Shown in pieces: positions 1,404-64,000 of a stretch of 64,000 bases of DNA. The translations under genes were made by a program, and so were the position numbers. The stretch lies in the NCBI GenBank assembly GCA_000091205.1, contig AP006502.2; one strand, 5' to 3'. A model generated the notes under the pieces. That model searched no databases, was not told the origin of the DNA, and saw only the letters and a list, made by a program, of their open reading frames with translations. Every line of letters begins with the position of its first letter. Positions within the stretch are counted from its first letter, which is position 1. This stretch comes from Cyanidioschyzon merolae (taxonomy: Eukaryota).

Positions 1404-2850
1404 GTTCTGCTCATGGTAGCGAACGTGTGAGCGTCGCGCAAACGTAAAAGGCGCCATGTACCCGAGTCCTGGCGCGGCACCGGCTTGCGTTGCCCATAGC
1501 CGAAGTGTACCCCAAACATGCCAGTTTTGGATCCAATTCGAAGATTGAACTGCTTGCTCTGTTCCCGACTTGAGATTTTTCTCAGATCTGTTTAAGATAT
1601 TGAAAGGCATGCAAAGCACAGCATTAATGGCGTGTGGCGCCGTACGTAGTATTCGGTTTCTCGGACGTTTTTTTCAGGATGGCTGCTTCGCAGCTTCACT
1701 GCTGGAATTCGTTACGTCAACGCAATCAAGATGATCCACGATGCGCTCGAACAGTGATTCGTAGAACAACCAAAAATATTCTCCAGTTCACAGGTACAAG
1801 CTTCCACTCTATTCCGTGTTGGCGCGGGACATGCTCAAATCACGAATCCATCGTCTTTTCGATCTTGCTGTTTCTAGGCAACTCGCAGACGCAGCGATCT
1901 GCGTCACCGGACTGACCAGGGGAAGTTTTCGACGTCGTCCCTGGACGGCTTCTCCAGACGCTCACGCCAAAACGTTCAATGAAATTGTCGCGTGAAATAT
2001 TCGATTCTGTTGGAAAGACATATCCCCTTGTCTTTGAGGTTACTTACGAATCGGCATTGCACAACAACATGGTACCTCATAGAGGGATATTCCCTCACAT
2101 GTCTCTTTCTCTTGCGTTTGCACGAAAAAGGGTCCTGGACTCGGACTTTATTCAACACAGGGATGGCTTCAGCCAGCGTATACGTTGCCGTTTTGCACGA
2201 AAGGGGCCCAGACAGATCAAAATTCATCGAGTTAATCTGATCCCTGGATGTTCCTCTAGGCATTTGTTTCACCATGGAAAGACGTCGCGTTCCACATATC
2301 CCCCACGGGAATCGAAGAACATACGTCTGTGCATGCCATGCGCAGAGTACTCGCCGGCGAGATCGCCCATAAGGAGCCCATGATCATGGAGTACGGCACT
2401 TGGCGCGGAAACTTAGGAGGATACCGTGCGACGCCTTCGAAGCACATCTGGGGCATGTATCGAGCGATAAGGCAAGCGTTCGCACGCCACGGAGTCGCGC
2501 GCGTAGGAGGAAGCGGGATTCACAGATGTTAGCACCTGATTAGAGCGACGACTCTTCGATACGAGTGGCGCACCGAGGCTGCATACAAAGAAGATGAAAA
2601 TGGCAAGCGAAGCGCAGGTCGCAACTTCCGCCTGTCCATGATCTACATTCAAAACGTCCGGTAGCAGCGAAATCTAGACCTTAACCCTGCCATTAACATT
2701 CTTGCACTGCTGACGATGGAGCTGGAGGGAAAGCAGAGACCAGCGCATGTGAAGCCGGTGATAAAAGAGAAGAAATAGAAGCAGCCGGAGACAAGGCCCG
2801 CAAACGCTGCTGTTGATGCTAATGGCAAAGGCCCGGACTTTAAACTGAAT

Positions 2851-3033
2851 GCCCTAGTTATCCACGTAAACCGTTGCATTTTACCCTGACTGAGGATAAA
2901 CATGCTATGGACGCCCTACTTAGCCACGTAAACCGTTGCACTTTACCCTGACTCAGTATATACATGCTATGGACGCCCTACTTAGTCACGTAAACCGTTG
3001 CATTTCACCCTGACTGAGTATAAACATGTTATG
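2851..3033. repeat. tandem repeat, 62-bp unit x3
   Basis: The unit gccctacttagccacgtaaaccgttgcactttaccctgactcagtatatacatgctatggac is repeated three times with a few substitutions. Confidence 0.9.
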
Positions 3034-3587
3034 AAAGCAGACGATGAGAAGCCGTGATGATGCCTGTCTACCTGACGATTCTCTCGCCTGATGAATCGGG
3101 CCCATGGCGAGACGCAGCGGACTGGATGCATCTGCGCTGTCCATATCAAAGGCAGTAGACTCCTGATCAGCGACGGTACCTAGAGGTACTGGGCAAGCCT
3201 CGGCGGGGACGCAACTTTTCGCGTGATACCCGCTGGCAGTTCGGCGCCATCAGGTTCCAGCGGGCGGCGCTTCGACGCTGCAGGAAGCATCGAATCCATC
3301 ATGGGCACCAGGAAATAACAGAAAACAGCACCAGAATAGAACGAAATGCGATACGGAACGACAGCGCACGAACCGGGAGAGTCACTGTATGCTTTGGCGG
3401 TACGAGTCTTCGTGGGGCTCCTTGCGAAAAGCACGCATTTACCAAGTTCAAGATATAGCGAGCTCCCGCGGTGCAACTGCGACTATACACTGTGCTGGTT
3501 GCCCACGATACGGTACAGCGGCGTATTTCTAGCCGGTGCATAACGCAAATCACGCTCTTCGGCGACAACCGTGAAACCCCGTCGCGC

Positions 3588-5222: not shown

Positions 5223-5924
5223 GATTCTACCGGAGAAACTGCAGCCGCTCAAATGATGCGGCGACGACGTGCAGCGGCAACCTCGCCGGACGAGGCCTAC
5301 AGAATGTCTAGAGGCGTTGGGTGTTATGCTTCAGTAGTGTGAGAGCGGCGACGCTGATGGTGCTCGCGGTGCGCAGTTTCGACAGGGATACGGATGAGAC
5401 AATTATGTATATTATTGCAAAGCACGTTCGGCAGCCGCCTCAACGTCGGATTTCGATCTGGATGCCTCAGGCTATTCGGGTGTGCCGACACCAGCACGCA
5501 CTTCACTAGCGTCTGTTGTGCACAAAAGCTGAATGATGCAGCTCGTCCTCGGCTAAGCGTGCACCTTGATGCTATCTGCACGATCATGGTTCGTACCGGG
5601 TTTGCGCATGCGCAGCACGATGCTTCTCTGCCTCCATCATGCGTTTGCATTGATGTATGTGACTGGGGTGCCAGCTAGATTCCGCTGCACGTTGCGAGCG
5701 TGCATTGATCATTCGCTCTCGAATGGGCGCTTTCCTTCAGGTTTCTTGCAAGTTTGAGGAGCTACCGGATCCAAGATGGATGTTTTTGGCCAAATGGTGT
5801 CATACGAGTGCACAGGAAAATAGAGATTATGAGGAATGAACATGCCGCTCTCGACTCTGGACGCATGAATGGTGCTGCGGTCACAGCGGTGACTCGACCA
5901 AATGGTGCTATGCATCTTTTTTTC

Positions 5925-6132
5925 AGATCATACGCAATACGTCCCTTGCTCTATCATTCTAAACGATTTGTCGATTACACAGCGTATCCCGTTTCCTATT
6001 TGCCAGATCATACGCAATACGTCCCTTGCTCTATCATTCTGAACGTTTTGTCGATTACACAGCGTATCCCGTATCCCATTTGCCGAATCATACGCAATAC
6101 GTCCCTTGCCCTATCATTCTAAACGACTTGTC
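5925..6132. repeat. tandem repeat, 80-bp unit x2.6
   Basis: The unit agatcatacgcaatacgtcccttgctctatcattctaaacgatttgtcgattacacagcgtatcccgtttcctatttgcc is repeated. Confidence 0.9.
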
Positions 6133-6416
6133 TACGAGACATCGCCCAGTTCATCGATGAACAGCAGCGGTCAGCCAAAGGCGCGTGCGTTACGCGACGG
6201 GTGGCGCGAAAGCGCGGGAGCCTGAGCGCTTACCGCCTCTGGGCGCAACGCGCGGCTTGCGCTTCTGGGCTAGCTTGAGCCTGTACGACACGAACGTTCA
6301 GAGCGGGACACACTTGGCAACTATTTCGCTTTTCTGGACTGCTTTATTTATCATCTAGGAGTGAAACTGGAGTCGGTTTTTGCATAGAAAACGGGCACTG
6401 CGGATATTCGCAGTTC

Positions 6417-8547: not shown

Positions 8548-9095
8548 TGGTTCCCTCGATACATCTCTCTCTCTCTCTGTCGGATATCCGGATATCAACA
8601 CGCCGGTCTCGTATATCGTTCCAGCTTCGCTATCAGCAGCAGGATCAGGTTGATGGCAGCGTTAGGGTCGCGATTTCGCCGCTTCTGGCTGTTGTCAATG
8701 TATTTCATGCCCAGGCAAAAGCTAAGATTCACGCATCGCTTGACTTTTTCATCTTTCCCCGAGTCTAGCATCGGTGCGTGCCACGCATTGGGGACTCTTG
8801 CCCGTTGTAAAGTGTTCCCGTATGGCAAAGATCCGTCAGTCTTCGAGAAGCGGCCCCGTGGCACGCGAACGCTTGCTTCATCTCTCGGTGTACGCCCTTG
8901 ACGGAGTACAGAAGGCTCGCCCCAAAGTACTCCTCTGTTTCCGCTTCTGAACGATCCCTTACGGCAAATGCGCTGTCGGCTGCATGCGGAAGCGCACGTT
9001 GTCTCGTTTGATAGGGAAGTTATGGAATGTGATGTTCTCCATGATGGAACAAGTACCGAAAAGAATACGCAGGGTGGAGAACGCGTCGAGCGCAT
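8548..9095 (-). mobile_element. repeat family 1, copy C: decayed TnpB/Fanzor-like 3' gene fragment plus conserved downstream tail
   Basis: The minus-strand ORF ends ...KRCVNLSFCLGMKYIDNSQKRRNRDPNAAINLILLL*. This is a zinc-finger plus RuvC-III-like DRDxNAAxNI motif, with the first Asp replaced by Asn. Nucleotide homology to the other copies starts from the shared boundary motif (tttttctgtgactgc-like). Protein-level homology to copy B holds for 400 bp or more. Confidence 0.45.
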
Positions 9096-9248
9096 TCCAA
9101 ATATCTACGCCCCGCATCGTGCAAAGCGATGGCAGACTCCCCAATAGAAGCGATCACTGCGATGACGCAAATCCGAATGCAAGACCCATTTCCATGCAAA
9201 TAGGAGAGACACGGGAGCCCCCGGGAGCGTATCCCCTGAGAAGTAGCA

Positions 9249-9269
9249 CTGCTGCTGCTGCTGCTGCTG
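9249..9269. repeat. (CTG)7 microsatellite
   Basis: A direct read of ctgctgctgctgctgctgctg. Confidence 0.9.
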
Positions 9270-10140
9270 AATGCCAAATCATCGCTTGAAGGCCCGCATT
9301 TTAGGTTCAGTTGTTGTTTTTTGCGAGCATTCGATTATTTGAATCGACAATTTCCGTTATCTTTCTGCATGCGAATCTCAACCATTCGTCAAGGGAACAA
9401 GTCGAGTACGTTTTACTCGTCGATGCAACAACGCGAACCGTTACGCCCATGGGATGTTTTGAAATAGAAAGATCGAAAACTTGAAGCGTGCGCGATTGGA
9501 GCATCCTGCACGTACGGAAAGTACAAACGCAGCGGCTCGTACGTACGCGTCGTCGGTTAACGATATCGGGTCTTTTGTACACCCTTGTTCGAGAGTATCA
9601 CCAATCATCTTGATTCCCTTGACCTAACGAGTTCCAGCGGGAACGCGTGGAATGAGCCACTCCAGAGCGAGACAGAGGCACCCCAGCATCCTGCGGTTAC
9701 ATGTAGATCCGTATACCCCTATTGCGGCACATCTAAAAAGTTCGAAAAATAATTTCGTGGAATGAACAGAGCAAGTGGTTCAGTGCTCCGCATGAATCTT
9801 ATACGGCTCTAGTGACTCCTTGGTACGACGAAAGGTTCACAGAGTACGGACTAATGAGCAGCGTTGCGCAATGCACGTCGTGGGACTTGCAACAACTGGG
9901 GTCCGGTCTGTCTGGGTAGGGTGCTGCACCTTGGGCTTGAACACGAACTGGGCGCGCTACTGGATGCGCCCCAGCAGCGATCACTGCTGATCTCACTCCG
10001 CTCGCAGGCAGTTACGATACACAGGGCGCATGTTCGCGAGCAACCCATCCGAAAATCCCTCCGACAGTACGTTTAGGTGCGAGTAAGCTCTTTTCGAGCA
10101 ACGCGTTAGCCAATCGCTCTCAATCCACCAAGTGCCTCCA

Positions 10141-11502: not shown

Positions 11503-12000
11503 GGCGCCTTCGAGTCCTTTGACCGTCCTGCTTGCTGCGTTCCGGCTAAACGACTTGCTCTGCGTGATAAACCTTCCGTTTCCAGAAAGATGCACTCGGC
11601 ACAATGTCGGCTTCGTGACCAGCAGAAGCTAGAGCCGCTTTCCACTGCCCCGCAAAGTGCACCTGTTGCTCGGTACGGTCGCTATTACCTGTTTTCACGC
11701 CTGCTCCAGCACACACTCCCAACTAGCTACGTCCAGGTTCAATCTATGTTCACTATTCTCCACAAGAAACAGTGAAGCAGAAAGGTACAATCGTATACCT
11801 GTTCTGCGTACGAAACTTGAAGAACACTTCGACAGGTGTGAATGTCTTCGCAGTGCGTTGCGTTCCCAGCGAGACTTGTGCGTCGCCTGCATTCTGCCGA
11901 GCTCCGCACTTTTGCCGTCGTTCACCTGAATTATGTTCCGCGCTGAAATACTTGTCACGAAATCCTTTTTCGGAGTTTATAGCAAACGCGTTTAAAGTGC

Positions 12001-12366
12001 GTTCATTTGAAGGAATAAAAATCCAGGAAAAGGTATGGATGTGCAGGTCGGGGATCTTCGCGGTCTGTCAATACCAGTTGCCCGAAGAAGATCGAAAAAT
12101 CCACTTCTCGCCGACTATCGGGCGAGGAAGCGCAAGTGAATATGAAGATGGACACGGCAGATAGACGAGGAAAGATGTTTGGCCGACGGGAGGATCACAA
12201 GCCTGCAGCGGTACGAGTGGCTCGAGTTCGGGCAATCCTTGCATTGGTTCGTTCAGTTCGAGGCAACGAACGCGCGGAGTTCCTGAAGCGAGACATCAAC
12301 GCCGTCATTCAACATCAGACTATGTGTGGTGTTGAAGTCGAGACCCGGGGAGCTTTCGATATCTAA
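12001..12366 (+). repeat. repeat family 2, copy 1: conserved ~135-bp leader plus short conserved ORF (MKMDTADRRGKMFGRREDHKPAAVRVARVRAILAL...)
   Basis: About 75% nucleotide identity to 15347-15560 and 63714-63990, for example ttctcgccgactatcgggcgaggaagcgcaagtgaatatgaagatgg. The ORFs align at the protein level with many substitutions and a preserved frame. Confidence 0.45.
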
Positions 12367-13501
12367 CCTAGTGGGGGTGCCTCTCAGACTCGAAATGGTA
12401 TCCGGATAAGAGCTGAAACGGATAGCAGTCGGTCGGCCAAAAATGGCTGGGAAGCGTCTGCGCGTGAGTCTTCATGTACCTTCCATGATCTTGGGTGGTT
12501 TTGTTTCACTCACGATTTGGGCGAATACACGACTGAATCGCCGCAAGGGCTGATGTTTTCGGAACGCTCGCTGCGCTCTTCTTTACGACCAGCAGTATAT
12601 GGGCGCTCTTCGCGCGCCTATACACAAGCCTATCATTTTCCCCGAATGACGTCTCATCGCATGAGACGCATACACTTTCATCCTGTCATACGCTTTCGCG
12701 TTTCATTACAAACTCGACGGCGCTTGTTGCTGAAAGCGTGACGGTCTACCATAGAGGCATGCTTTTTTCTTTGTCCATCCGTGTCTCCTCATTACGATGC
12801 GTTCCAGCGGTTCAGATGCCTCACATCCTACGTCTTCTAAGGGAGCAATTTCTCGACAGCGTACGTATTGGATCGCATGCACAAGGCTACAGTCGTGCAG
12901 GCACAGTTTGTTAGATTCTGTTTTGGACGTGCGACTTTCAGGATAAGAACGACGACGACGACGACGAGAAAGGTTGCTCAACCAGCTGCTGACCAAAAAG
13001 TAACCGACATGGACACGAAAGGTTGTTTTTTTTCGCAACCTCTCCCCGATCTACAAAATGCATTCCTTTTGTTGAATACATGGGAGAAAAACAAAAACAA
13101 ACAACAAAAAAGGCGAGCTGGAGCACATGCTCCAGAATGCACTGCTCCAGCTTGAGCGATCGCTTGCATGGAGCAAGCTTGTCAAGTTCGTTGATGGATC
13201 TTACTTCACCTAGTCTGAAGCGTTTTCGGGGCGAGAATCCTTTGTTAGTCTAAGGGAACAGGTATACCTCTCGGGACGATGCTCGCTTAAGGCGAAGATC
13301 TCTATCACAATGGCAAATATATCCTAGTATCTATTCTTTTGCTGAGCGGCTCTTTACCGCGTTATTACTCAAGCGGGCCGCGTTTGATCACGATTTCACC
13401 GGGAAATCGCGCTCCTCTGCAAGTCCATAACTTGCGCTCCTGTTTGTATAGAAACATCAGCTTTGCGATTGCCTGATATTCTAACCTGAGCCCCATGGCT
13501 T

Positions 13502-15013: not shown

Positions 15014-15346
15014 ATGCCTCGCAAATATTTCAACAAAAAAGAATACCCTCGCCGCGAAGTCCAGCGTCGGTTGCAGGCAACGTCACCAGTGCTTCGCTGG
15101 TATCGAAGCGTTACTTTGAACGACCCACCGATGCCGGCGGCCGCGTGTCGCTGCTGGCCGTCATCGGCGGTGACGTGGCTTCTTCTGCAGCCACAATTGC
15201 CTCGATCATCTCTGGACGCAGTGCTGTGGAGCGATGACACGAGCCGGGGGCGATCGTACGAACGATACAGGTGTTTAAAATCAAACGTGTTCCAGGATCA
15301 GGTGCGTGTTCTCACATCCTTGTTCGCAGTTCATAGCAGATGCGTT

Positions 15347-15763
15347 CGAAAAGCTTTCATTTGGAGAAATAGAAATCCGAGGGAAAGGTAGCGCATGGAC
15401 GTTGGGGATCTTGGAGGGCTGTCAGTGCCAGATGTCCGGGAAAAAACCGAAAAATCCTATTTTCGCTAAGTATCGAGCGAAGAGTAGCAACTGAATATGA
15501 AGATGAGGAGGCGAGGTGGGCGAGAAAAGGTGTTTGCACGACGGGATGATGACGAAACTGTAGTGATGCAGAGAGCTCGAGTTCGAGGAAGCCTTGCACG
15601 TATGAGTTCAACCAGAGGCAATAAATGCAAGGAGTTCATTAACCGAGGCTTCAGCGCCATCAGCAATATCAGACGAGGTGCGGTGCTAAAGACGAGACCC
15701 AAGGAGCTTACGCGATTCAACGTTGTCGGGCAGCATCTGATGCTCGAAATGATGCCCGGATAA
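15347..15763 (+). repeat. repeat family 2, copy 2 (ORF MKMRRRGGREKVFARRDDDETVVMQRARVRGSLARM...)
   Basis: Homologous leader (gctttcatttggagaaatagaaatccgagggaaagg...) and ORF. It lies 180 bp from family-1 copy E. Confidence 0.45.
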
Positions 15764-15942
15764 AAACTGAACCGGAGAGCAAGCTGTCTGTCAAAAATTG
15801 ATGGGAGGCGTGTGTGCTTGGGTAACAAGTTACCCTCTACGGCCGTAGAACATTTCTCGTGTTCCCGATTATAGATACATAACATACTCATGGTCGCTGA
15901 AGTTCGGTTTCTCATTCTATGTCGTCATCATCAGTCTTTGAG

Positions 15943-16300
15943 GACCTTTTACGCGACTGCCTCCTTTTCCTACCTCTGATATCCGGCTTTGAAGACGGCG
16001 ATCGTTGCGCTCACTGCTGCTCTTTTTTCAGCAGTCTGAGGATGCTCATGGATGCGTCCAAGTAAGGAGTTAGCCGCTCCTAGCTTTCTTATAACGCATT
16101 TCAGGCGCAGACCGCAGCTGGGATATTTGCTTCGCATGCTATTTTCACCTTCATCGTAGACAATTTCGGTTCGCCTTTCGCACCGGTGACACTTGGCTGT
16201 GGTCGGGTCTTCTCGTGCGTCCGCTAAACCGCATTCATGCGCTGCTCTGCGGCTTACGAATGCTTGCTTCATCGCTCGTTATATGCCTGTAACAGGTGGA
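15943..16300 (-). mobile_element. repeat family 1, copy E
   Basis: The minus-strand ORF reads TTAKCHRCERRTEIVYDEGENSMRSKYPSCGLRLKC (CxxC-x17-Cx5C zinc finger). About 75% nucleotide homology to copy A, including tcgcaccggtgacacttggctgtggtcgggtc. It shares the same low-coordinate boundary. Confidence 0.45.
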
Positions 16301-18016: not shown

Positions 18017-18317
18017 CCTGAGCGAACAAGCCGTTCCCGCAAACGCACTTTGCAACGATGACGGTGTGGCGCGGCGGGCGCGCCTCCGTAGGGACGGAGG
18101 CCTCGCGTCAAGCGCCGACAACAGCCACCGTTGTATATTGCTTTCCTTCGGCATTGTATCGATACTTCTAACCTGAGAATCGCTGTATGCACAATGGTTA
18201 TAGCAGGCATGTCGGAATGAAATAGAATGGGTCCACTTATTGTTCTCAGGCGTGTACGTGGCAGTTTGCAACCCTGCCACGGTTACCATTGTCATCAATC
18301 CTAGCTTTTGTAGAATG

Positions 18318-18720
18318 TTTCATGGACTGCTTCCACTTCCTTTCTCTTATATCTGGCTTTGAAAATGATTGCTTCTCCTTTCCATCCAGCCCTGTTGTCA
18401 GCAGTCGAAATCTATTGATGTCGGTGTTCAAGTCCCGACTACGCGGCTTTCAGCTGTCGTTCGCACATTTCATGTACAGACGGTTGTTGCGCTCGACGTT
18501 TCGTTCGCCATGTTTACCTTCTTTGGTCGCAGACATGGTGCGCCCTTCGCAGCGGTGACACTTGAATGTGGTCAGGTGTGTTCCCTTATGCCAACCAAAC
18601 CGCCCAGCACCGGAGGCTGCACAGTGGCGCGTGCACGCTTGGCTCACCGTTCAGTAAACGCTCTTGACGTGTACAAAAGAATAAGTTCGAAAGCTCCCTC
18701 CAATTCTAGGTCCGGTTCCG
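18318..18720 (-). mobile_element. repeat family 1, copy A
   Basis: The minus-strand ORF reads HKGTHLTTFKCHRCEGRT...RLYMKC. Conserved blocks are shared with copies B, C, D and E: ccagccctgttgtcagcagtcga and tttcatgtacagacg. Confidence 0.45.
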
Positions 18721-23442: not shown

Positions 23443-24248
23443 GTTCTCGATTATAGCTTATCGAGGAAGAGACGGAAGCAAGAAGGCACGCCTGTCACGT
23501 TGTGCCGCTGTGGGTGCCTCGCAAAGCACCATTTATTCCTGGACATATTAGGCCAAGACAGTCCGATGCTGTCACCTGGCAAGTGTGCGTTTGGCTTCGC
23601 AGCGCCGGAGGCTCGGCACTGCAATGCAGTGCTTGCCACGGGCACGACAATCCAGAAAATCGTCTGATTCCGGAGCGCATGTGGGTGCATGAAGGAGCAT
23701 AGTTGATGCCCCGGAGGAAGGATGAGGCGTGCCTAGGTAACCGGTTGAATACCTTTCGCATAGGATACGGTGTTGCTGCAGAGTTCGCTCGATCATGTCT
23801 TTAGAACACACTCTAGAGCCCTGATGATGCATGCGGGTTGTATCGCTTTTTTCGTCGGATCCTATCCCGGATGCAGCCTGATGGTACACACGTGACGGGC
23901 TTCGAGCCGCGAGGGTGCATACCTGATGCATCAAGTGTGGGAATTCGCGGCATGAACAAGCATATCCGAAGCTGTTCATCATGCATGTCGCGTCAGCTGG
24001 GAACACGGTATAGATGCCTGCACGAGAAGCGGGCGCGTTTTCGGGCAATATTCGAACGTGTTCTCGGGGCGGAGCCTGCACTTCCATGAGGAATGCTGTG
24101 GCAGCCACGCAGTGAATGATTCACGAAACGATTCGCCGTCATATGCCTAGTCCCCAGCGGGTATACTGCGTTTAATTAACGTGGGGCGCTTGTCGCTTTC
24201 TGTGTCCTAAAAGCACAAAAAGCCTTGCTGATCAGGGTTATACTCGGT

Positions 24249-26829
24249 GCAGAGAATTCTGGAGTGCCTGTATCAGCACGCTGTTTTCGATTTATTTCGG
24301 GTTTCTCGCATACAGTCAACAAAGGAATGCATCCTGTACATTACAGAGAAGACACGGAAAGACTGGTGCTGTCAATGCTAGGATGCGTTCCATGGCCCTA
24401 CGACTACAAGTTCGCCGTTCTGCGCTCAGCGCGTGCATGAACCACACTCGTCGTTGCCCCTGAGCTGAACGTCCTGCACCCAAACCAGATCCCAGAGAAC
24501 GCCCACTAAACGACCGTCTCTCTGTCGATTCACGCCACGACATGCAGTCTCGAACAGGCCGCTATCACAGATGCCAAAGAATGCGACGTTTCCGTTCCGC
24601 AGATGCGAACGGCCACGAACACACGCAGACGGACAACCGAAAACGGCATGCTTATGAGCGGAACTGTCGCACGTCCAGCTGCACACACTTGATTCCGCAC
24701 GGAGACGCGTGTGAGCGCTTCCCATGGGCGACAAGCGCTCATCATCTCGGTCGCAGAGACCTCATTCCCGAGAATACCTGCATCACAATATGGGTACGCC
24801 AAGCAGGGCGTACCGCTGTTCGTAACGAAGGGACGCACGGGAAGACCGGCAGCACCAGCCCGAGTGGCAGTGCGGCCGTGTGGAGGCCTGCACTCGCGAA
24901 ACGCACAGCATCGTGCACTACGTCATCCCGTGTCTGAGCTGTCTCGTCGCGCGTTCATCTCCATACACTGGGTTGTCCTGATCGCGGACGACGCTGCTTT
25001 CCATCACTCAAACCCGGTCAAGGAGCGCGCACCTGAGGCAGGCGTTGAGCGGCTCCCTCCACTGGCTCGTGCTTCTGGGTTCATTCAAGTCGAGGCGTCT
25101 GCGCTGTTGTCAAGTGCCGTTTTCGCAGGCACGCGTCCGTGCACGAGCCGCTCGCAACCGTGAAACGCGTCTTGCACAATTCGTCTCTTGGTCTGTGTCA
25201 GCGATGAACTGGAGTGTTGCCCCTGTGCTCGTGGGCATGCGGCAGCGCGCCGGCGTGCTTCGGTCCTTGAGCGTGCCCGCGACGAACAGGATGACGAAAA
25301 GGTAACTAGATATACATATGTACGTGGGGCAGGGGATGTTTAGTGGCACTGTTTGCACACCGCACCGAGTCCAGGAGAGAAACCGGATGGAAAGCATCGG
25401 AAACACTGTTTGGCACACAGCGACGTGAGGGAGATTCAGAAGGATACCACCAGGCAAAGAAGAGGGAGATTCTCCGGGAAAGAGCGCAACAATGGGCATG
25501 AATGAAAAGCTGTCGGGGCGGAAAGATCAAACGTACGCCGTCCTTGAGGCGTCTCCGCCGAAACACATCAATGGGGAGAATGCTCCAGGACGTGAAATGC
25601 AGGATGCTATTAGGGATCGCACAGCGTCTTACTCGACACGTCGTGTCCAGCACCTCGCGCCTCGGTGCATACCGCCGAAGCATTGTTTTACGAGTTCTGG
25701 AAGAAGGTCTGGCAGCTGTCCACATTCCTCTGGATTATTTCGATCCAACTATCGTGCAGCAAGAGAACGGATGCTCGCGACAGACGATTCTCGATGGCCC
25801 AGTCATATGGTTCGAGATTCGCACAAACGCCTCGAATCGTACCTCGACATGCGCCAGCACAACGTCTTCGCTCGAAAAATGTTCTGCAGTGCATGTGCCA
25901 AATGGTATCAAATGCCTAACTGCAGACCGAAAAGCCTATGTTGGTGAACCTCGAGAGCTTCATGGAGCGCACCGTGTGGGCGTTGTATCCTCATCTTCGT
26001 GGGCCCGCAAAGAAGAGCTGATGGAGGGGATTCTCTGCTCCAGCTTGTACATGAGTGCCACTAGGTGTCACGGGGGCGATCCCTGGCATGGGCACGTGGT
26101 GTCGCGCTGGGGCCGCCACCCGTATCGCAGTGCGGAGGCAAGAGGCGTGTATTCGGGCACACGTTCAATGCGTCAGAAGAAGGAGATGATTGAGAGGTCG
26201 CGTCGCTTGCCCGTAGCCTATGGCGCTGCTCGTTCCGGGCAGCGTAAAACCTGCACTCGTACAGCCTTCGCGCCGAATGTGCAACGACTGCAGGAATCGA
26301 TGCTGCACAACTCCCATAGATGCATCCCCGACGACATACGCGCCTCACGAGCACGAGTGCACCCTGCAACAGGCCCAGAAGCAGTATGTGGAATGGAGTC
26401 GCATGCACGAGATGGCCTACGACCAGCTCAGCAAACATCAGATGCCGAGGCAATCGCCAGTGAGACGCTCGGTATGGTAGGATTCCACAGGCCGCAGTAC
26501 GCCCGAGCGAACAGTATCTGCGCGGAGACTTCAGCCCATCGATGACCTGCAGGTACCGTCTTGCACTTGCAGAGCGTCCGGCTTCCTTGCGTCGAGCGAG
26601 TTCTCGATGTCTACGCTCAGCACGCATCAGTCTGGGCGCTTCGCGAAAACGCTGCAGACCTGCGACGGAAGATAGAAACCCCATTGCCCAGGAGAGCGGG
26701 CATTGGATTCAAGCTTGAAGCGAGCCACAGGTATGGTATGGTACCGCGATCCAGCAAGATTACAGCGCTCAATATCTGCACCGAAAAACCTTTCCCAGGG
26801 CACCTGCTAGACGATATTTGGGTTTTGTT
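24249..26829 (+). repeat. 2581-bp direct repeat, copy 1 (upstream of SERCA)
   Basis: Near-identical (about 99.5%) to 30385-32965 at a constant offset of 6136 bp. Only a handful of single-base differences are visible as amino-acid changes in the duplicated ORFs. Confidence 0.95.
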
Positions 26830-27164: not shown

Positions 27165-27280
27165 CCCCGGTCAACGAAGCGCTTGTCGTGGCCCGCGACG
27201 CATACCGAATCCAGGCGGTGCTCGGTAGCTTGTCGAGACGTTCAGCAACGTCTCTCTGGACCAAAAGTCGTGTGTGTTCC

Positions 27281-30200: not shown

Positions 30201-30298
30201 TCCTATGGCTCAGTCTGCCGGTGGTATGGCTCGATGAAGGGCTCAAATATTTCAGTCGACTGCAGAAACGTCGTCAAACAATCAAGAAGATGCGGTAA
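27281..30298 (+). CDS. sarco/endoplasmic reticulum Ca2+-transporting P-type ATPase (SERCA/ECA type)
   Basis: P-type ATPase hallmarks: ICSDKTGTITTNRM, KGAPE, TGDGVNDAPALKAADIGISMG and VAAVEEGRAIYENMRQFIRYLISSNIGEV. The track start at 27188 is a GTG codon. The first ATG at 27281 gives MEDAFCRTAEEVLEAFQV, which matches the canonical SERCA N-terminus. This is a single exon of about 1005 aa. Confidence 0.95.
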   Translation: MEDAFCRTAEEVLEAFQVRKDYGLTEEQVALYAQRYGRNVTAREESAPLWQLVVKQFQDQLVLILLGAAGISFILALFEDDEDRVTAFFEPLVIVLILAANATVGVIQETNAEKAIEALREYEPDDATVLRCGELRRVRSEELVPGDIIEVSVGMRVPADCRIIELASTVLYADQSVLTGESISVSKSPEAITDTQCMIQDKTCLLFAGCTIVRGKARCVVTQVGERTEIGKVRRNIAETKAVMTPLKRRLDEFGSLLSKIILLICVLVWLINIRNFWNPEHGGFLRGAVYYFKIAVALAVAAIPEGLPAVVTTCLALGTKRMARKNAIVRSLPSVETLGCTSVICSDKTGTITTNRMCVTRVLLVSDVLPAGDGKLLDLEVTGHGDFSPFGNVVYNGSVLESPLKSLPPLAELSIAATFCNDASITFNMKGRQYDKIGEGTEAALITLVEKLRTPDEHYNAEISHMPLVQRATATRAYWNRLFERVATLEFTRDRKSMSVFCRRLSDESLHMFVKGAPERILENSDYVCIGNGMRIPITPVLRRQLLDAVASLSSGVHALRTLAIATRDHPPALETVDMRDTQSFARYESNLTFIGLVGMIDPPREEVRAAIETCALAGIRVIVITGDNKATAEAICRQVGIFDDYEDLSGKSYTGREFELLPEDARRQVVRRARLFARVEPLCKQRIVTLLQERGEVVAVTGDGVNDAPALKAADIGISMGTGTAVAKGAADMVLGDDNFATIVAAVEEGRAIYENMRQFIRYLISSNIGEVWCVFLTAVLHTPEALAPVQLLWVNLVTDGLPATALSFNRPAKNIMQQPPRPSNEHIVNGWLLFRYLVIGTYVGVATIAGLIWWYMFYAGGPQLSWSELRLHRQCQSGNDLGTGLAISCDIFRSRHPSTVSLSILVTIEMLNALNSLAENESITIVGPWTNPFLVLAICLSLALHAIILYVPFFNRVFATAPLDFQEWVAVLWLSLPVVWLDEGLKYFSRLQKRRQTIKKMR

Positions 30299-30384
30299 AA
30301 GGCTCTGGAAGAGAATGCAATCCGGGAACACCAGCCGCTACAGCAGCGACAACACTCTGCCTCGGAACCTAGACAAGCCCTGGA

Positions 30385-32965
30385 GCAGAGAATTCTTGAG
30401 TACCTGTATCAGCACGCTGTTTTCGATTTATTTCGGGTTTCTCGCATACAGTCAACAAAGGAATGCATCCTGTACATTACAGAGAAGACACGGAAAGACT
30501 GGTGCTGTCAATGCTAGGATGCGTTCCATGGCCCTACGACTACAAGTTCGCCGTTCTGCGCTCAGCGCGTGCATGAACCACACTCGTCGTTGCCCCTGAG
30601 CTGAACGTCCTGCACCCAAACCAGATCCCAGAGAACGCCCACTAAACGACCGTCTCTCTGTCGATTCACGCCACGACATGCAGTCTCGAACAGGCCGCTA
30701 TCACAGATGCCAAAGAATGCGACGTTTCCGTTCCGCAGATGCGAACGGCCACGAACACACGCAGACGGACAACCGAAAACGGCATGCTTATGAGCGGAAC
30801 TGTCGCACGTCCAGCTGCACACACTTGATTCCGCACGGAGACGCGTGTGAGCGCTTCCCATGGGCGACAAGCGCTCATCATCTCGGTCGCAGAGACCTCA
30901 TTCCCGAGAATACCTGCATCACAATATGGGTACGCCAAGCAGGGCGTACCGCTGTTCGTAACGAAGGGACGCACGGGAAGACCGGCAGCACCAGCCCGAG
31001 TGGCAGTGCGGCCGTGTGGAGGCCTGCACTCGCGAAACGCACAGCATCGTGCACTACGTCATCCCGTGTCTGAGCTGTCTCGTCGCGCGTTCATCTCCAT
31101 ACACTGGGTTGTCCTGATCGCGGACGACGCTGCTTTCCATCACTCAAACCCGGTCAAGGAGCGCGCACCTGAGGCAGGCGTTGAGCGGCTCCCTCCACTG
31201 GCTCGTGCTTCTGGGTTCATTCAAGTCGAGGCGTCTGCGCTGTTGTCAAGTGCCGTTTTCGCAGGCACGCGTCCGTGCACGAGCCGCTCGCAACCGTGAA
31301 ACGCGTCTTGCACAATTCGTCTCTTGGTCTGTGTCAGCGATGAACTGGAGTGTTGCCCCTGTGCTCGTGGGCATGCGGCAGCGCGCCGGCGTGCTTCGGT
31401 CCTTGAGCGTGCCCGCGACGAACAGGATGACGAAAAGGTAACTAGATATACATATGTACGTGGGGCAGGGGATGTTTAGTGGCACTGTTTGCACACCGCA
31501 CCGAGTCCAGGAGAGAAACCGGATGGAAAGCATCGGAAACACTGTTTGGCACACAGCGACGTGAGGGAGATTCAGAAGGATACCACCAGGCAAAGAAGAG
31601 GGAGATTCTCCGGGAAAGAGCGCAACAATGGGCATGAATGAAAAGCTGTCGGGGCGGAAAGATCAAACGTACGCCGTCCTTGAGGCGTCTCCGCCGAAAC
31701 ACATCAATGGGGAGAATGCTCCAGGACGTGAAATGCAGGATGCTATTAGGGATCGCACAGCGTCTTACTCGACACGTCGTGTCCAGCACCTCGCGCCTCG
31801 GTGCATACCGCCGAAGCATTGTTTTACGAGTTCTGGAAGAAGGTCTGGCAGCTGTCCACATTCCTCTGGATTATTTCGATCCAACTATCGTGCAGCAAGA
31901 GAACGGATGCTCGCGACAGACGATTCTCGATGGCCCAGTCATATGGTTCGAGATTCGCACAAACGCCTCGAATCGTACCTCGACATGCGCCAGCACAACG
32001 TCTTCGCTCGAAAAATGTTCTGCAGTGCATGTGCCAAATGGTATCAAATGCCTAACTGCAGACCGAAAAGCCTATGTTGGTGAACCTCGAGAGCTTCATG
32101 GAGCGCACCGTGTGGGCGTTGTATCCTCATCTTCGTGGGCCCGCAAAGAAGAGCTGATGGAGGGGATTCTCTGCTCCAGCTTGTACATGAGTGCCACTAA
32201 GTGTCACGGGGGCGATCCCTGGCATGGGCACGTGATGTCGCGCTGGGGCCGCCACCCGTATCGCAGTGCGGAGGCAAGAGGCGTGTATTCGGGCACACGT
32301 TCAATGCGTCGGAAGAAGGAGATGATTGAGAGGTCGCGTCGCTTGCCCGTAGCCTATGGCGCTGCTCGTTCCGGGCAGCGTAAAACCTGCACTCGTACAG
32401 CCTTCGCGCCGAATGTGCAACGACTGCAGGAATCGATGCTGCACAACTCCCATAGATGCATCCCCGACGACATACGCGCCTCACGAGCACGAGTGCACCC
32501 TGCAACAGGCCCAGAAGCAGTATGTGGAATGGAGTCGCATGCACGAGATGGCCTACGACCAGCTCAGCAAACATCAGATGCCGAGGCAATCGCCAGTGAG
32601 ACGCTCGGTATGGTAGGATTCCACAGGCCGCAGTACGCCCGAGCGAACAGGATCTGCGCGGAGACCTCAGCCCATCGATGACCTGCGGGTACCGTCTTGC
32701 ACTTGCAGAGCGTCCGGCTTCCTTGCGACGAGCGAGTTCTCGATGTCTACGCTCAGCACGCATCAGTCTGGGCGCTTCGCGAAAACGCTGCAGACCTGCG
32801 ACGGAAGATAGAAACCCCATTGCCCAGGAGAGCGGGCATTGGATTCAAGCTTGAAGCGAGCCACAGGTATGGTATGGTACCGCGATCCAGCAAGACTACA
32901 GCGCTCAATATCTGCACCGAAAAACCTTTCCCGGGGCACCTGCTAGACGATATTTGGGTTTTGTT
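30385..32965 (+). repeat. 2581-bp direct repeat, copy 2 (starts 87 bp after the SERCA stop)
   Basis: See copy 1. Homology stops abruptly at ...gatatttgggttttgtt in both copies. Confidence 0.95.
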
Positions 32966-39310: not shown

Positions 39311-39418
39311 AAACAAATACACATAATTGGAAAACGCTCGCCTAAGTAAACGTTTTGTCGATGAAAAAAATGCATTCAGGGCACCGTCCGACAGGGGCGC
39401 GCACGCCGCTGCCTGCCT

Positions 39419-43093: not shown

Positions 43094-43180
43094 GCAGCAG
43101 CAGCAGCAGCAGCAGCTTATGATGATGGTGATGCACCTGATCATGATGCTGCTGCTATATATGCCCCCACAGATGAGACT

Positions 43181-43212
<32 letters not shown>

Positions 43213-43400
43213 TTATGACGATGGTGATGCACCTGATCATGATGCTGCTGCTATATATGCCCCCACAGATGAGACTACAGCAGCAGCAGCAGCTTACGAT
43301 GATGGTGATGCACCTGATCATGATGCTGCTGCTATATATGCCCCCACAGATGAGGCAGCAGCAGCAGCAGCAGCAGCGGCAGCTTGTGATGATGGCGATG
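43094..43400. repeat. minisatellite (81-93-bp unit x about 3.5) with embedded (CAG)n microsatellites
   Basis: The unit (gca)n ttatgatgatggtgatgcacctgatcatgatgctgctgctatatatgcccccacagatgagactaca is repeated. It translates to polyQ, polyA or polyC depending on strand and frame. Confidence 0.85.
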
Positions 43401-43699
43401 CTACTGCTACAGACGCTACTATTCGTTTTACAGATTCTATAGATACAAGTGCGGCAGCGGCGAGCGACAATGGGAAATCTGGGTGGTGTCAAGACCGCGT
43501 CGGGTGCGGCGCCGGGCAGGCGCGCTCGATGATGACTGGAAGCGCTGGAGAATCGCAGTGCAGCATCGCGTGAAATCGTCAAGCTATTTTGGGCGGTTAG
43601 CCCTGCTGCTGCTAGCTGTCAAACTTGGACCCGCTGAGCAACCACTGTCCCTGAGACATGCTACAGTGACAGCTCGTTTGCTCTGCTGCGCATCATCCG

Positions 43700-56452: not shown

Positions 56453-57467
56453 AGCCTTGGCAACACAAGTTCCTCACGCTTCAAGCAGCACGTAATGTAT
56501 GCTTGCTCCTTGAGGCTCGCTACGTACATAGTCTCAAAGCTACGCGTCCACACCCGCAGGAAGAGGCATGAAACTTGTAATAGCTTGGTTTAATCAGAAC
56601 AATGGCGAGCACGCCGAAAATACCTGAAGTGGGCGCTCCCAAAAAATGTCTCGCGATAGTGGAGCTTAAATATATATCTACCCACGCTCTGTCGCCTACC
56701 GGCCATTTTTGACCTGCCGCCTGCTATCGGTTTCAGTTTATCCAGGCACACCTCGAGCCTGAGAGGCTGCCTCACAAAGGTGGATCGTCTCAGCTCCTCG
56801 GGCCTCATCTTCAGGATCAAACATCGTCTAATATTGCTAGCAACTTCTGAGTCTCGGTTCACGAACTCCTTGCGTGCAGTGCCCTCTGGTTGGCCTCATC
56901 AATGCAAGGATTCCCCGAAAACATGCCATCTGTGGAATGAAGGTATCTTCATCGCCCTGCGGGCGAACAGCTTTTCTCGCCTACCTCACCTCTTGCTTTT
57001 CATTATCTTCTTCATTGCTTGCTCTTGTTTTCTTGATGATCGCCGAGAAGAGATTTTTTCGTTTTTTTTCACAGCAGCCAGCGAGGACTGTCCTCTAGGA
57101 TCCCCGACTTCCATGTGCGCACCTTTCCATTGGGGTTTTACTCTTGAAAATGAATGCCCTTCAAGAGAATCTGCTTTAAACCGCAAAAAAGCAGTTGATG
57201 ACACCCACCAGGTGGCGGAACGCAATTCAGGTTAAAGATCATAGTCTGCATCGCGTCGAGCGCGCGGATCTCGCAGGACTGACCGCTGCTGCTCGAAAAC
57301 TGCATTGATTTAGTTGCAATCCTCTTACGTGGTGTTCTACGTGGAATATTACTGCGCCTCTAAAGAGTCTGTGCGGGGTACTTTACTCGAAAAAGAGTTC
57401 AAGTTGGGTAGGAAATATCGGATACGTTATCCTAGGCGCCTGAAACGTCCGTGCCGTAGGGCGCAAT

Positions 57468-62275: not shown

Positions 62276-63713
62276 GTCTTAGAACAAGATTCTTTTCCAC
62301 GCAGACAGAAGATTCGGGGCCCCCCCGGAGAACACTCGAGAGGTGTCATGCTGCCGTTGGGTGCCATTTCATCCATTGCCACAAAGAGAGGAGTTTTCAT
62401 CCTTCGGGCAGAGTCGATTATTTGGGATGACAAGTCCAGTGAACTCGCGGCCTGGGCTTGTGAACAAGCCGTCGAGGAACGACGTCGAGTTGTTTTCATC
62501 GTCACTGGAACGGCGCTCAGTGCTGAACCCACGAGTTGCCTTGCAACAGAGAGATCGAAATTCGGAGAGTGCGTGATTTGAGCATGTTACATGTAATTAG
62601 AGAATAAGATCGGAGGCTTGTACGTATAAAATGGATACTGACAGCGTTTTTTTCTATCCCCTGCTCGAGTACGTCGAGAATCGTCTCAGTATCGGTGACG
62701 TAAAGTATTCCACTGGAAAGGCCTCGTAGATGTCGCGCCCAAACAGATTACAGAGACTCCTAATGCTACGTACGAATTCGTAAGCCTCTAGAGCAGCATT
62801 TTGAATCTGGAGGCTCTGGATCAAAAATGACATTCCTAAAATATATTGAAAAATAGGAAGAAAGCAAGCTTTTCGGGGCTGCATCTCAATTTGTCAAGGC
62901 TTTAGCGAGCCGGCCAATCGTCAAAACACTACAAAGAGCATCACTCAAATCTTTAGTTAGTGGAGAAAATCGTATGAACAGCAATTTGTAATATTTCCTA
63001 TATTCCGGAAAGTCCCTTTCATTCAATACAAACTCATTTCCAGTTAATTCCATCGAGCAGAATCGAAGAGAGGGCTATATGGGTATTCCCCGCGGAAATT
63101 ATGTGCATAAGAGCCGCTGTTACTGATGTACGACAGAAAATGTGGTCATTGACGTGTGATATATGCACCAGTGAATTCTGAAACACCTGTACCAATACAT
63201 CTATTTTGTTTGCATTTTTTCTATTATTCTAAGCAAAAGCTTCCATCTTTTGGATTGGGCAGAGGCAGCAAAAACCTCTATGCTGTGAATGGTGGCATGG
63301 GAAGAAGAGCTCTAAAAGTGCAAGTCATTCATTCCGCCGTCAACAGCTGGATAAGGCACAGTTCTGATGGACCTAATCGTACACGTCGTGCATCAAAAGA
63401 AACAGTACTTACAAATTCCATAGAGGCGACTCTCTTTTCTTCCTTCAAATCCAGTTCATAATTTCCCAAAAAACACCACCAAAGAAGCCGCAGGATGAAA
63501 AGTTCTTCTACCGCGGATGCAAACGGCGATGAAGAGGCACAGATGTGCAAAGAAGAAAGCACGATCCTGTGATACTCGCGCAACCTATAGCAAATTGTCG
63601 AATTTGAACTAATACGTGAACTCTTATAATTATAATCCTTGACCTGATTTGTGTTCCGCGCATAGGTGAGCGTAATGGAGTGTTTTCTCGTGGTCTATAG
63701 GAGATACATTTGA

Positions 63714-64000
63714 AGTACGTTCATTTTCAAAAATAGAAAGTCCAAGTGAAAGCTGCTTATGTGGAAATATTGGGTCCTGGAGAGCCGTCATCGCCGATTA
63801 AGTGAGAAAAGAAGTTCTCGCCGACTATAGAGCGAAAAAGAGCAAGTGACGAAGATGAAGGCGAATAGATGGAAAGAGAGCCAAAAAAAGATATTTGCCC
63901 GACGGAACGACGACGAGAGTTTCGTGGCACAGAAGGTACCCATTCGAGGAATTTTCGGATGGGTGCGCTCAACCCACGTAAATGCATGCATGGATTTGTT
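63714..64000 (+). repeat. repeat family 2, copy 3 (ORF MKANRWKESQKKIFARRNDDESFVAQKVPIRGIFGW...), truncated by the window end
   Basis: Homologous leader (gtacgttcattttcaaaaatagaaagtccaag ... ttctcgccgactatagagcgaaaaagagcaagtga) and N-terminal ORF. Confidence 0.4.

What the first reader, a model, noticed from the sequence alone, without database searches (positions are those of the whole stretch)
12001..12366. Repeat family 2: conserved leader plus conserved short ORF of unknown function (at least 3 copies)
Copies at 12001-12366, 15347-15763 and 63714-64000 share a conserved ~135-bp noncoding leader, then an ATG.

The N-terminal peptide is conserved at the protein level despite many nucleotide substitutions:
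- MKMDTADRRGKMFGRREDHKPAAVRVARVRA...
- MKMRRRGGREKVFARRDDDETVVMQRARVRG...
- MKANRWKESQKKIFARRNDDESFVAQKVPIRG...

All copies stop after 76-88 codons.

The pattern (conserved 5' UTR plus diverging but frame-preserving ORF) resembles the 5' end of a transposon gene or a multigene family. I cannot assign the protein.
Basis: seen in the sequence. Interest (0 to 1): 0.55.

Follow-up and report, generated by a model that had tools for sequence, protein, structure and literature searches.

The report
Decayed mini-copies of a Fanzor transposon
The repeated "leader plus short ORF" is a family of old, decayed, internally deleted copies of a known red-algal transposon that carries a Fanzor RNA-guided nuclease gene; the short ORF is a leftover fusion of that gene's two ends, so the finding is ordinary.

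Summary
The repeat is real and larger than reported. There are four copies of about 580 bp: c1 11921-12501 (+), c2 15275-15855 (+), c3 63639 to the window end (+), and a missed copy c4 57235-56644 (-). It is not a small-protein gene family.

- **What it matches.** Each copy maps to the published CMe-1A Fanzor1 transposon consensus of Cyanidioschyzon merolae (Bao & Jurka 2013). Positions about 795-1070 are fused in frame to about 2835-3169.
- **What is left.** The fusion keeps the 5' UTR and the first ~55 codons, then the last ~90 codons and the tail. About 1.8 kb of coding sequence is missing.
It contains the ancestral Fanzor start codon.
In c2, residues 26-86 match Fanzor1 residues 646-707 (58% identity, E 8e-18), which include the RuvC-III motif.
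- **One origin.** All copies share the same junction, including copies on unrelated metagenome contigs. This points to one deleted progenitor that later amplified.
- **No coding constraint.** No copy keeps the fusion ORF intact. Substitutions are equal across codon positions. Amino-acid identity equals the neutral expectation.

These are decaying relics of a non-autonomous derivative of a known transposon. The host is a cyanidiophycean red alga with no genome at NCBI.

The parts
11921..12501 (+). Copy c1 of the short Fanzor1-derived element (whole element)
   Evidence: nhmmer envelope 11903-12495. Boundaries come from the alignment with other short copies and CMe-1A. CMe-1A 840-910 matches 11966-12039 at 80%.
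11921..12034 (+). c1: sequence derived from the 5' UTR of the Fanzor1 gene (CMe-1A ~795-905)
   Evidence: Aligns with CMe-1A just upstream of its ATG. A 5'-end HMM built from 54 full-length loci hits 11965-12055.
12035..12200 (+). c1: relic of Fanzor1 codons 1 to ~55. The ancestral ATG is at 12035 and an in-frame TGA lies at 12137-12139, followed by a frameshift.
   Evidence: The translation MDVQVGDLRGLSIPVARRRSKNP... parallels CMe-1 MEKEVEDPGGPVSPAAGKKRKTVP....
12200..12212 (+). c1: deletion junction joining CMe-1A ~1070 (..RRQYDEMVV) to ~2835 (MERRAKVRG..)
   Evidence: The same junction is present in c1-c4 and in L009, L025/L038 and L056. In full-length loci the two halves lie 1.7-2.3 kb apart.
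12212..12460 (+). c1: relic of about the last 90 codons of Fanzor1.
   Evidence: The Fanzor HMM hits 12211-12333 and 12305-12427 in two frames. The post-stop frame reads GVPLRLEMVSG*ELKRIAVGRPKMAGKRLRVS.
12142..12366 (+).
15275..15855 (+). Copy c2 (whole element).
   Evidence: The Fanzor HMM scores 42 bits, E 1.3e-14, on 15554-15754. BLASTP against CMe-1 residues 646-707 gives 58% identity, E 8e-18. CMe-1A 2849-3010 matches 15580-15738.
63639..64000 (+). Copy c3, cut by the window end shortly after the junction (~63916-63928)
   Evidence: CMe-1A 822-889 matches 63666-63733. The 5'-end HMM hits 63631-63736.
56644..57235 (-). Its ORF is broken by an in-frame TGA and +/-1 indels. Its 3' end lies ~190 bp upstream of an Alba-domain gene (55922-56452) on the same strand.
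   Evidence: (I2, I6). The Fanzor HMM scores 40 bits, E 4e-14, on 56707-56892. CMe-1A 826-969 and 2851-3012 both match. The copy is present at 99% identity in strain contigs L001/L002.
26192..26504 (+). An older, separate Fanzor-like relic matching HMM positions 337-441. It is not a member of the short family.
   Evidence: 26 bits, E 1e-9; ORF context
32328..32643 (+). A duplicate of the older Fanzor-like relic, inside the second copy of the 2.58-kb direct repeat

Best explanation
Family 2 consists of old, decaying copies of a ~580-bp non-autonomous derivative of a Fanzor1-carrying transposon of the CMe-1A type. CMe-1A was first described in Cyanidioschyzon merolae.

**Origin (shown).** One progenitor lost about 1.8 kb of internal coding sequence. 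It kept CMe-1A ~795-1070, which is the last ~110 bp of the 5' UTR, the start codon and ~55 codons. This is fused in frame to CMe-1A ~2835-3169, which is ~90 C-terminal codons with the RuvC-III motif plus the 3' tail. The first ~140 bp of the full-length core unit is also missing.

**Spread (inferred).** The deleted unit was then copied to many loci. I infer this from the identical junction and 5' boundary at unrelated sites. It was presumably moved in trans by whatever machinery moves CMe-1A; that transposase is unknown.

**Decay (shown).** The copies have since drifted neutrally to about 65% pairwise identity.

**The short ORFs (shown).** They are chance-surviving stretches of the fusion frame. 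The RuvC-I and RuvC-II segments are deleted, so no nuclease can be made.

**Present function (inferred).** None is indicated.
For: 1. **Two halves map to opposite ends of full-length elements.** In more than 50 full-length elements from metagenome contigs, the family-2 DNA HMM splits. Positions ~13-300 hit the 5' end and ~323-577 hit the 3' end, on the same strand and 1.7-2.3 kb apart.
2. **Direct match to the published consensus.** CMe-1A 822-969 and 2849-3012 hit the window copies at 71-80% identity.
3. **Protein level.** c2 ORF residues 26-86 align to CMe-1 Fanzor1 residues 646-707 at 58% identity, E 8e-18. An HMM of 26 long homologs hits c2 (42 bits), c4 (40 bits) and c1 in two frames.
4. 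**Shared junction and 5' boundary.** Both are shared by c1-c4, L009:7407-6821, L025:8513-9104 and L038. L056:6262-6777 shares the junction but has a further ~36-nt deletion in its 5' part.
5. **The parent family is Fanzor1.**
   - P0004 is 91% identical to the CMe-1 consensus.
   - Intact relatives carry GADPGNTN, VDEFRTS and NRDFNAAINI.
   - The family profile's best PDB hit is Parasitella Fanzor 1 (9cf0), E 0.0017, collinear through these motifs.
   - Four of 19 members weakly hit PF07282, the Cas12f1-like TNB domain.
6. **Neutral decay of the short copies.**
   - Identity is a uniform 62-67% along the element.
   - Codon-position differences are about equal, against 0.124/0.100/0.189 in full-length copies.
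   - Amino-acid identity equals the neutral simulation.
   - No copy is intact from the true ATG to the true stop.
Against: - **5' terminus.** The short family lacks the first ~140 bp (CMe-1A ~655-795) of the conserved 5' end of full-length copies. "Both termini retained" is therefore not strictly true, and mobilisation in trans is inferred, not shown.
- **No mobility evidence.** No target-site duplication, terminal repeat or empty site was found, so mobility rests only on the shared junction.
- **3' tail.** The tail of the window copies differs from CMe-1A by a ~45-nt deletion.
- **Divergence.** The copies are only ~70% identical to the C. merolae consensus, so they belong to a diverged sub-lineage.
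- **Fold.** Fold-level confirmation of Fanzor membership failed because the AlphaFold model had pLDDT 36.
- **c2 ORF.** It is still open at 88 codons, and in a second strain too (P0001, 98% identity).
Confidence: 0.87

Rival explanations
1. A real multigene family encoding a small basic protein of ~75-90 aa with a conserved 5' UTR.
For: ORFs of 74-88 codons start with MKM/MKA in c1, c2 and c3. The c2 ORF is also open in another strain (P0001).
Against: - c4 has an in-frame stop and frameshifts. The C-terminus of c1 is in a different frame from c2.
- There is no third-position excess and no excess amino-acid identity over neutral simulations.
- Conservation is equal upstream of the ATG and downstream of the stop codon.
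- The only protein homologs are C-terminal parts of ~730-aa Fanzor1 proteins.
- The true start codon lies upstream and is followed by stop codons.
Confidence: 0.03
2. Independent relics of full-length Fanzor1 insertions, each having lost its middle separately through recurrent deletion between the same short homologies. On this view there was no amplification of one deleted progenitor.
For: The junction lies at a short shared ATGG/GTGG motif (5' ...GAGATGGTGGTG; 3' ...CAAATGGAAAGG) that could favour recurrent deletion. Full-length copies are abundant, with more than 438 loci.
Against: - At least seven copies at unrelated loci share the same junction. Six of them also share the same 5' boundary (~795) and the same ~45-nt deletion in the 3' tail; the L056 copy lacks the tail deletion.
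- Their mutual divergence (~65%) is greater than that of the full-length copies from the consensus (80-90%). This indicates a separate old lineage.
Confidence: 0.05
3. The copies are kept because the 3' half encodes a functional guide-RNA scaffold (omega/fRNA) used in trans by Fanzor1, or because the element acts as a promoter or regulatory module for neighbouring host genes. For example, c4 lies ~190 bp upstream of the Alba gene.
For: - In TnpB/Fanzor systems the guide RNA is encoded at the 3' end of the element (established knowledge).
- Full-length copies have potential 3' hairpins: 75% of cells pair, against ~40% when the partner columns are slid. One copy folds with z = -3.0.
- The short element keeps exactly the 5' UTR and the 3' end.
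Against: - Short copies fold no better than shuffles, with z from -1.2 to +0.9.
- Covariation is not above column shuffles, and RNAalifold finds no consensus structure.
- There are no Rfam hits.
- The 3' tail carrying the hairpins is partly deleted in the window copies.
- Divergence is uniform, with no conserved island.
Confidence: 0.05

Closest known systems
CMe-1A, the Fanzor1 element of Cyanidioschyzon merolae (Bao & Jurka 2013, PMC3627910; consensus 3169 bp, protein 734 aa, ~150 copies, no TIRs, TSD undetermined)
   Same: The window copies align to its DNA consensus at 822-969 and 2849-3012, and to its protein at 646-707. Full-length relatives on metagenome contigs are 80-90% identical to it in DNA and up to 91% in protein.
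   Different: The window copies are ~580-bp deletion derivatives that lack ~1.8 kb of coding sequence and the TE-N2-like 5' 635 bp. They are only ~70% identical to the consensus. They sit in a different, unnamed cyanidiophycean genome.
TE-N2_CMe (635-bp element equal to the first 635 bp of CMe-1A; Bao & Jurka 2013)
   Same: It is a short, multi-copy, non-coding companion of the same Fanzor1 element in the same algal group.
   Different: Family 2 maps to CMe-1A ~795-1070 plus ~2835-3169, not to 1-635. A TE-N2-like fragment does occur elsewhere in the window, at 39057-39259.
5'-truncated or internally deleted copies of the Chlamydomonas Fanzor1 families CRe-1/2/3 (Bao & Jurka 2013)
   Same: The pattern is the same: a missing 5' end, an internal deletion and a retained 3' region.
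   Different: Those families have Helitron2-type ends, variable truncation points and variable TSDs. Here one fixed junction is shared by all copies, and neither the end structure nor TSDs are known.
MITEs and bacterial PATE-like derivatives of IS200/IS605 (non-autonomous elements that keep the ends and lose the gene)
   Same: It works like these: an internally deleted element that depends on functions supplied in trans and outlives its coding capacity.
   Different: No terminal inverted repeats or palindromic ends were demonstrated. The outermost 5' ~140 bp is absent. Mobilisation has not been shown.

Membership tests
Fanzor1 / CMe-1A transposon (sequence derivation) | Significant DNA and protein similarity to the published CMe-1A consensus and the CMe-1 protein | tested here: met
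   blastn matches CMe-1A 822-969 and 2849-3012 at 71-80% identity, E 1e-6 to 1e-16. BLASTP of the c2 ORF against CMe-1 gives E 8e-18. The HMM of homologs scores 40-42 bits.
Fanzor1 (functional RNA-guided nuclease gene) | Complete RuvC-like domain with the D (RuvC-I), E (RuvC-II) and D (RuvC-III) motifs in one intact ORF of ~600-800 aa | tested here: not met
   The RuvC-I and RuvC-II segments are deleted in all window copies. Only a RuvC-III relic remains: KRDINAVIQ in c1, NRGFSAISNI in c2 and NRDSEVASNI in c4. Full-length relatives elsewhere do carry GADPG, VDEFRTS and NRDFNAAINI.
Fanzor1 (parent family of the relatives) | Fold or profile similarity to solved Fanzor structures | tested here: inconclusive
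   The profile search against PDB gives Parasitella Fanzor 1 (9cf0) as best hit, E 0.0017, collinear through the motifs. The AlphaFold model was unusable at pLDDT 36, so no fold search was run. Membership rests on 91% identity to the CMe-1 protein that Bao & Jurka classified as Fanzor1.
Fanzor/TnpB system | Structured guide RNA (omega/fRNA) encoded at the 3' end of the element | tested here: inconclusive
   Potential hairpins in full-length copies pair in 75% of cells against ~40% when slid, but shuffles give 73.9%. RNAalifold finds no consensus. Short copies fold with z from -1.2 to +0.9. There is no Rfam hit.
Non-autonomous deletion derivative (MITE-like) | Collinear with both end regions of a longer element, with the internal part missing | tested here: met
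   HMM positions 13-300 and 323-577 map 1.7-2.3 kb apart in more than 50 full-length loci; see also the alignment. Caveat: the outermost ~140 bp of the 5' end is absent.
Non-autonomous deletion derivative (MITE-like) | Several copies at unrelated loci share one deletion junction, showing amplification after the deletion | tested here: met
   The same junction is present in c1-c4, L009s, L025s/L038s and L056s. Flanks are unrelated, at 36-48% identity.
Non-autonomous deletion derivative (MITE-like) | Terminal inverted repeats, target-site duplications, or empty sites that prove insertion | not tested
   The whole-window repeat scan reported no inverted pair at the copy ends, but I made no targeted search for TIRs or TSDs. 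The ends are fuzzy at ~65% identity, and no empty-site allele was available. Bao & Jurka also could not determine TSDs for CMe-1A.
   ORFs are broken or frameshifted in c4 and c1. Codon positions differ about equally. Amino-acid identity equals the neutral expectation.
TE-N2_CMe | Corresponds to the first 635 bp of CMe-1A | tested here: not met
   Family 2 starts at CMe-1A ~795.

The most novel reading that the evidence does not exclude
The short element kept just the parts a Fanzor system might need in cis: the promoter and 5' UTR with the basic N-terminus, and the guide-RNA-encoding 3' end. When young, it could have been a "guide-only" satellite that hijacked Fanzor1 and the unknown CMe-1A mobilisation machinery in trans. 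That would be a eukaryotic counterpart of bacterial omega-RNA-only or PATE-like elements. Its amplification without the outermost 5' ~140 bp would point to a 3'-end-driven, one-ended copying mechanism for this unclassified transposon.
Probability: 0.1. Interest if true: 0.55.

Novelty: new member of a known kind. Interest (0 to 1): 0.25.

Why it matters
Mostly it prevents a wrong annotation. These ORFs should be masked as transposon relics, not called as a new small-protein family.

It has modest value beyond that.
- It shows that the Fanzor1 element CMe-1A, whose mode of transposition is still unknown, produced a deletion derivative that amplified. That derivative has ~280 bp of 5' sequence and ~340 bp of 3' sequence and lacks the outermost 5' end. 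This narrows what is needed in cis.
- It shows that the Fanzor1 family is very abundant in environmental cyanidiophycean genomes, with more than 438 loci in one scan.
- It shows that Pfam DUF8286 (PF26935) hits proteins of this family.

Tried and rejected
1. **Wrong by-eye reading of the leader (rejected).** I first read the leader as decayed C-terminal Fanzor coding sequence (FANFFN, AYGAGR, VDEFRTS look-alikes; notes). The nhmmer mapping and the CMe-1A alignment place the leader at the 5' end of the element.
2. **Pfam on the repaired L003 pseudo-protein and the c2 ORF.** No hits. phmmer of the same protein against PDB gave nothing meaningful.
3. **AlphaFold2 on alignment A2.** pLDDT was 36 and the model was unusable, so no fold search was run.
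4. **Rfam scan of the window.** No hits. ARAGORN found no tRNAs.
5. **RNA structure.** RNAalifold on 71 3' ends gave no consensus structure. Three hand-drawn hairpins (scored as four helices) showed pairing potential but no covariation beyond shuffles.
6. **RIP-like mutation idea (dropped).** I suspected a repeat-induced point-mutation process because many full-length copies showed abutting in-frame ORFs. My first count used a frame that was off by one. After correction, stops (mean 2.3) and frameshift indels (mean 2.1) are both common and the origins of the stop codons are diverse.
7. **Replitron or Helitron affiliation.** The Replitron paper reports none in red algae.
8. **Extending c3 with L003.** This failed. 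That strain contig diverges from the window at 62586.

Full report
**1. What is in the window**

The window has about 54% G+C. It holds intron-less eukaryotic housekeeping genes on both strands: Ran, a P-type Ca-ATPase, a BRCT protein, PDH E1-alpha, cysteine desulfurase, a UbiA prenyltransferase and an Alba protein.

Exact and near-exact copies occur only on JGI metagenome contigs. The best named relatives of its PDH E1-alpha are Cyanidiococcus yangmingshanensis (80% identity) and Cyanidium caldarium (69%). The host is therefore a cyanidiophycean red alga with no genome at NCBI.

**2. Checking the observation**

- The three reported copies align with each other.
- A DNA profile built from them finds a fourth, minus-strand copy at about 57249-56640.
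- Each copy is about 580 bp. Refined coordinates are c1 11921-12501, c2 15275-15855, c3 63639 to the window end, and c4 57235-56644.
- The ORFs at 12136-12366 and 15497-15763 exist.
- c4 has a TGA after MKSKR and +/-1 indels.
- c1 has a 1-nt insertion relative to c2 and c4, so its C-terminus is read in another frame.
- Similarity continues upstream of the ATG and downstream of the stop codon at the same level.

**3. Finding the parent gene**

A search of 5.8 billion proteins with the 88-aa peptide returned only its own strain variant.

The lead came from contig L003, a 99.3%-identical strain variant that diverges from the window at 62586. It carries a partial family-2 copy embedded in a longer frameshifted reading frame. 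That frame contains FVIGVEPRNTN, VRIDEFRTS and KRDLNAAINIRR.

The repaired 309-aa translation found 118 metagenomic proteins of up to 516 aa. Intact ones carry GADPGNTNI, VDEFRTSYTHHELGC and NRDFNAAINIRRCAVLE-RPPELTRENF-GQPLKVELYEKKLEAVVGGRSKKAGRRLH.

- A profile of 19 of them has as its best PDB hit the Parasitella parasitica Fanzor 1 (9cf0), E 0.0017. The alignment is collinear through the DPG, DEFRTS, NRD-AA-N and terminal RPP motifs.
- Four of the 19 weakly hit the Cas12f1-like TNB domain.
- An HMM of 26 long homologs, run against the six-frame translation of the window, hits c2 (42 bits, E 1.3e-14), c4 (40 bits, E 4e-14) and c1 in two frames. It also hits an unrelated older relic at 26192-26504 and 32328-32643.

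**4. Link to the literature**

Bao & Jurka 2013 (PMC3627910) described a Fanzor1 family, CMe-1A, in Cyanidioschyzon merolae. It has about 150 copies at ~80% identity to a consensus of about 3 kb. It has no TIRs, its TSDs are undetermined and its classification is unknown.

Their supplement gives the 3169-bp consensus and the 734-aa CMe-1 protein.

- P0004 is 91% identical to CMe-1.
- The metagenome loci are 80-90% identical to CMe-1A in DNA.
- The consensus hits the window copies directly: 822-969 on c4, 840-910 on c1, 822-889 on c3, and 2849-3012 on c2 and c4, at 71-80% identity.
- c2 ORF residues 26-86 align with CMe-1 residues 646-707 at 58% identity, E 8e-18.

**5. Anatomy of a copy**

A scan of metagenome contigs returned more than 438 relatives, and 80 loci were kept. 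In more than 50 full-length elements, the family-2 DNA HMM splits in two. Positions ~13-300 map to the 5' end and ~323-577 map to the 3' end, 1.7-2.3 kb apart on one strand.

Alignment with CMe-1A shows the following.

- The 5' half corresponds to CMe-1A ~795-1070. That is about 110 bp of 5' UTR, the true ATG (c1 position 12035) and about 55 codons ending ...RRQYDEMVV.
- The 3' half corresponds to ~2835-3169: MERRAKVRG..., the RuvC-III motif, the C-terminal tail and the 3' non-coding end.
- The fusion is in frame.
- The same junction occurs in c1-c4 and in short copies on unrelated contigs (L009:7407-6821, L025:8513-9104, which equals the L038 copy, and L056:6262-6777).
- The flanks are unrelated.
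- The short family starts ~140 bp inside the conserved 5' end of full-length copies, which begins at CMe-1A ~655.
- Except for the L056 copy, the short copies carry a ~45-nt deletion in the 3' tail.

**6. Is the short ORF under selection?**

- Read from the true ATG, every short copy has stop codons and frameshifts.
The flanks show 36-48%.
- Differences are spread evenly over codon positions. Full-length copies compared with their consensus show a clear third-position excess, 0.124/0.100/0.189.
- Amino-acid identity between copies matches 2000 neutral simulations for all 15 pairs.
- The peptide similarity is therefore shared nucleotide ancestry, not protein-level constraint.
- RuvC-I and RuvC-II are deleted, so no nuclease can be encoded.

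**7. RNA at the 3' end**

In TnpB/Fanzor systems the guide RNA is encoded at the element's 3' end (established knowledge).

- Full-length copies have potential hairpins near the end.
- RNAalifold gave no consensus structure.
- My hand-drawn stems pair in 75% of cells against ~40% when the partner columns are slid. Column shuffles reach 73.9%, so covariation is inconclusive.
- The last 150 nt of the short copies fold no better than shuffles, with z from -1.2 to +0.9. Full-length copies give z from -0.9 to -3.0.
- Rfam has no hit.

**8. Conclusion**

The finding is a set of four decayed copies of a non-autonomous, internally deleted derivative of the known CMe-1A-type Fanzor1 transposon. It sits in a cyanidiophycean genome that has not been described.

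- **Shown:** the homology, the two-ended architecture, the shared junction and the lack of coding constraint.
- **Inferred:** amplification as a unit, and mobilisation in trans by an unknown machinery.
- **Not shown:** exact termini, TSDs, transcription and any present function.

It is a new member of a known kind and should be annotated as a transposon relic.

Noticed in passing
window 1832-2817 (-), 8595-9516, ~15910-16290, ~18280-18665, 54454-55468, 61598-62591 (+): A second dispersed repeat family of up to ~1 kb has six full or partial copies at 64-75% identity. It also occurs on metagenome loci L010, L011, L013, L020, L029, L030, L031 and L064 at 65-70%. One copy (15910) abuts the 3' end of c2. 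It has no Pfam hit and its nature is unknown.
   Followed up: partly
window 24246-26829 and 30382-32965: Two 2.58-kb direct repeats, 99.5% identical, flank the P-type Ca-ATPase gene (27188-30298). Each contains a strongly decayed Fanzor-like relic (HMM positions 337-441) inside a spurious 347-aa ORF. This looks like a recent segmental duplication or a recombination substrate.
   Followed up: partly
window 38011-39373: A ~1.37-kb repeat is 82-89% identical to sequence lying immediately upstream of CMe-1A copies on at least eight metagenome loci (inverted on several, e.g. L017, L022, L024). It includes a TE-N2_CMe-like piece (CMe-1A 85-282 matching 39259-39057 at 74%).
   Followed up: partly
L003:3586-5534 versus window 62587 onward: A strain contig that is 99.3% identical to the window up to 62586 (the end of a family-1 copy) then diverges completely. 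It carries a frameshifted full-length Fanzor1 pseudogene on the opposite strand, where the window has ~1 kb of other sequence followed by c3. This is either structural variation or an assembly join at a repeat.
   Followed up: partly
loci L008-L087 (for example L024:4675-5051, L010:4675-4905): Full-length Fanzor1 copies carry one to six tandem units of ~75-80 nt (CMe-1A 2117-2196). These encode a repeat of the type KHEEKKEAGPATQEVEDNDLVV just upstream of the RuvC-I motif, so protein length varies between copies.
   Followed up: no
proteins P0008, P0015, P0021 and others; loci L005, L007: Pfam PF26935 (DUF8286) is the precomputed hit on many of these proteins. This domain of unknown function therefore hits proteins of the cyanidiophycean CMe-1 Fanzor1 family. 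The model is absent from the local Pfam copy.
   Followed up: no
window 2846-3038, 5916-6155, 43101-43407, 48782-49040: There are intergenic or genic tandem repeats with periods of 62, 80, ~81-96 and 133 nt, at 73-98% identity. I did not examine them.
   Followed up: no
whole window: The organism is a cyanidiophycean red alga. Its PDH E1-alpha is only 80% identical to Cyanidiococcus yangmingshanensis and 69% to Cyanidium caldarium. Exact matches to window proteins came only from non-NCBI sources: the Ran protein on JGI metagenome contigs (samples 3300050361, 3300050362, 3300054705, 3300054988) and PDH E1-alpha in a Logan assembly.
   Followed up: partly
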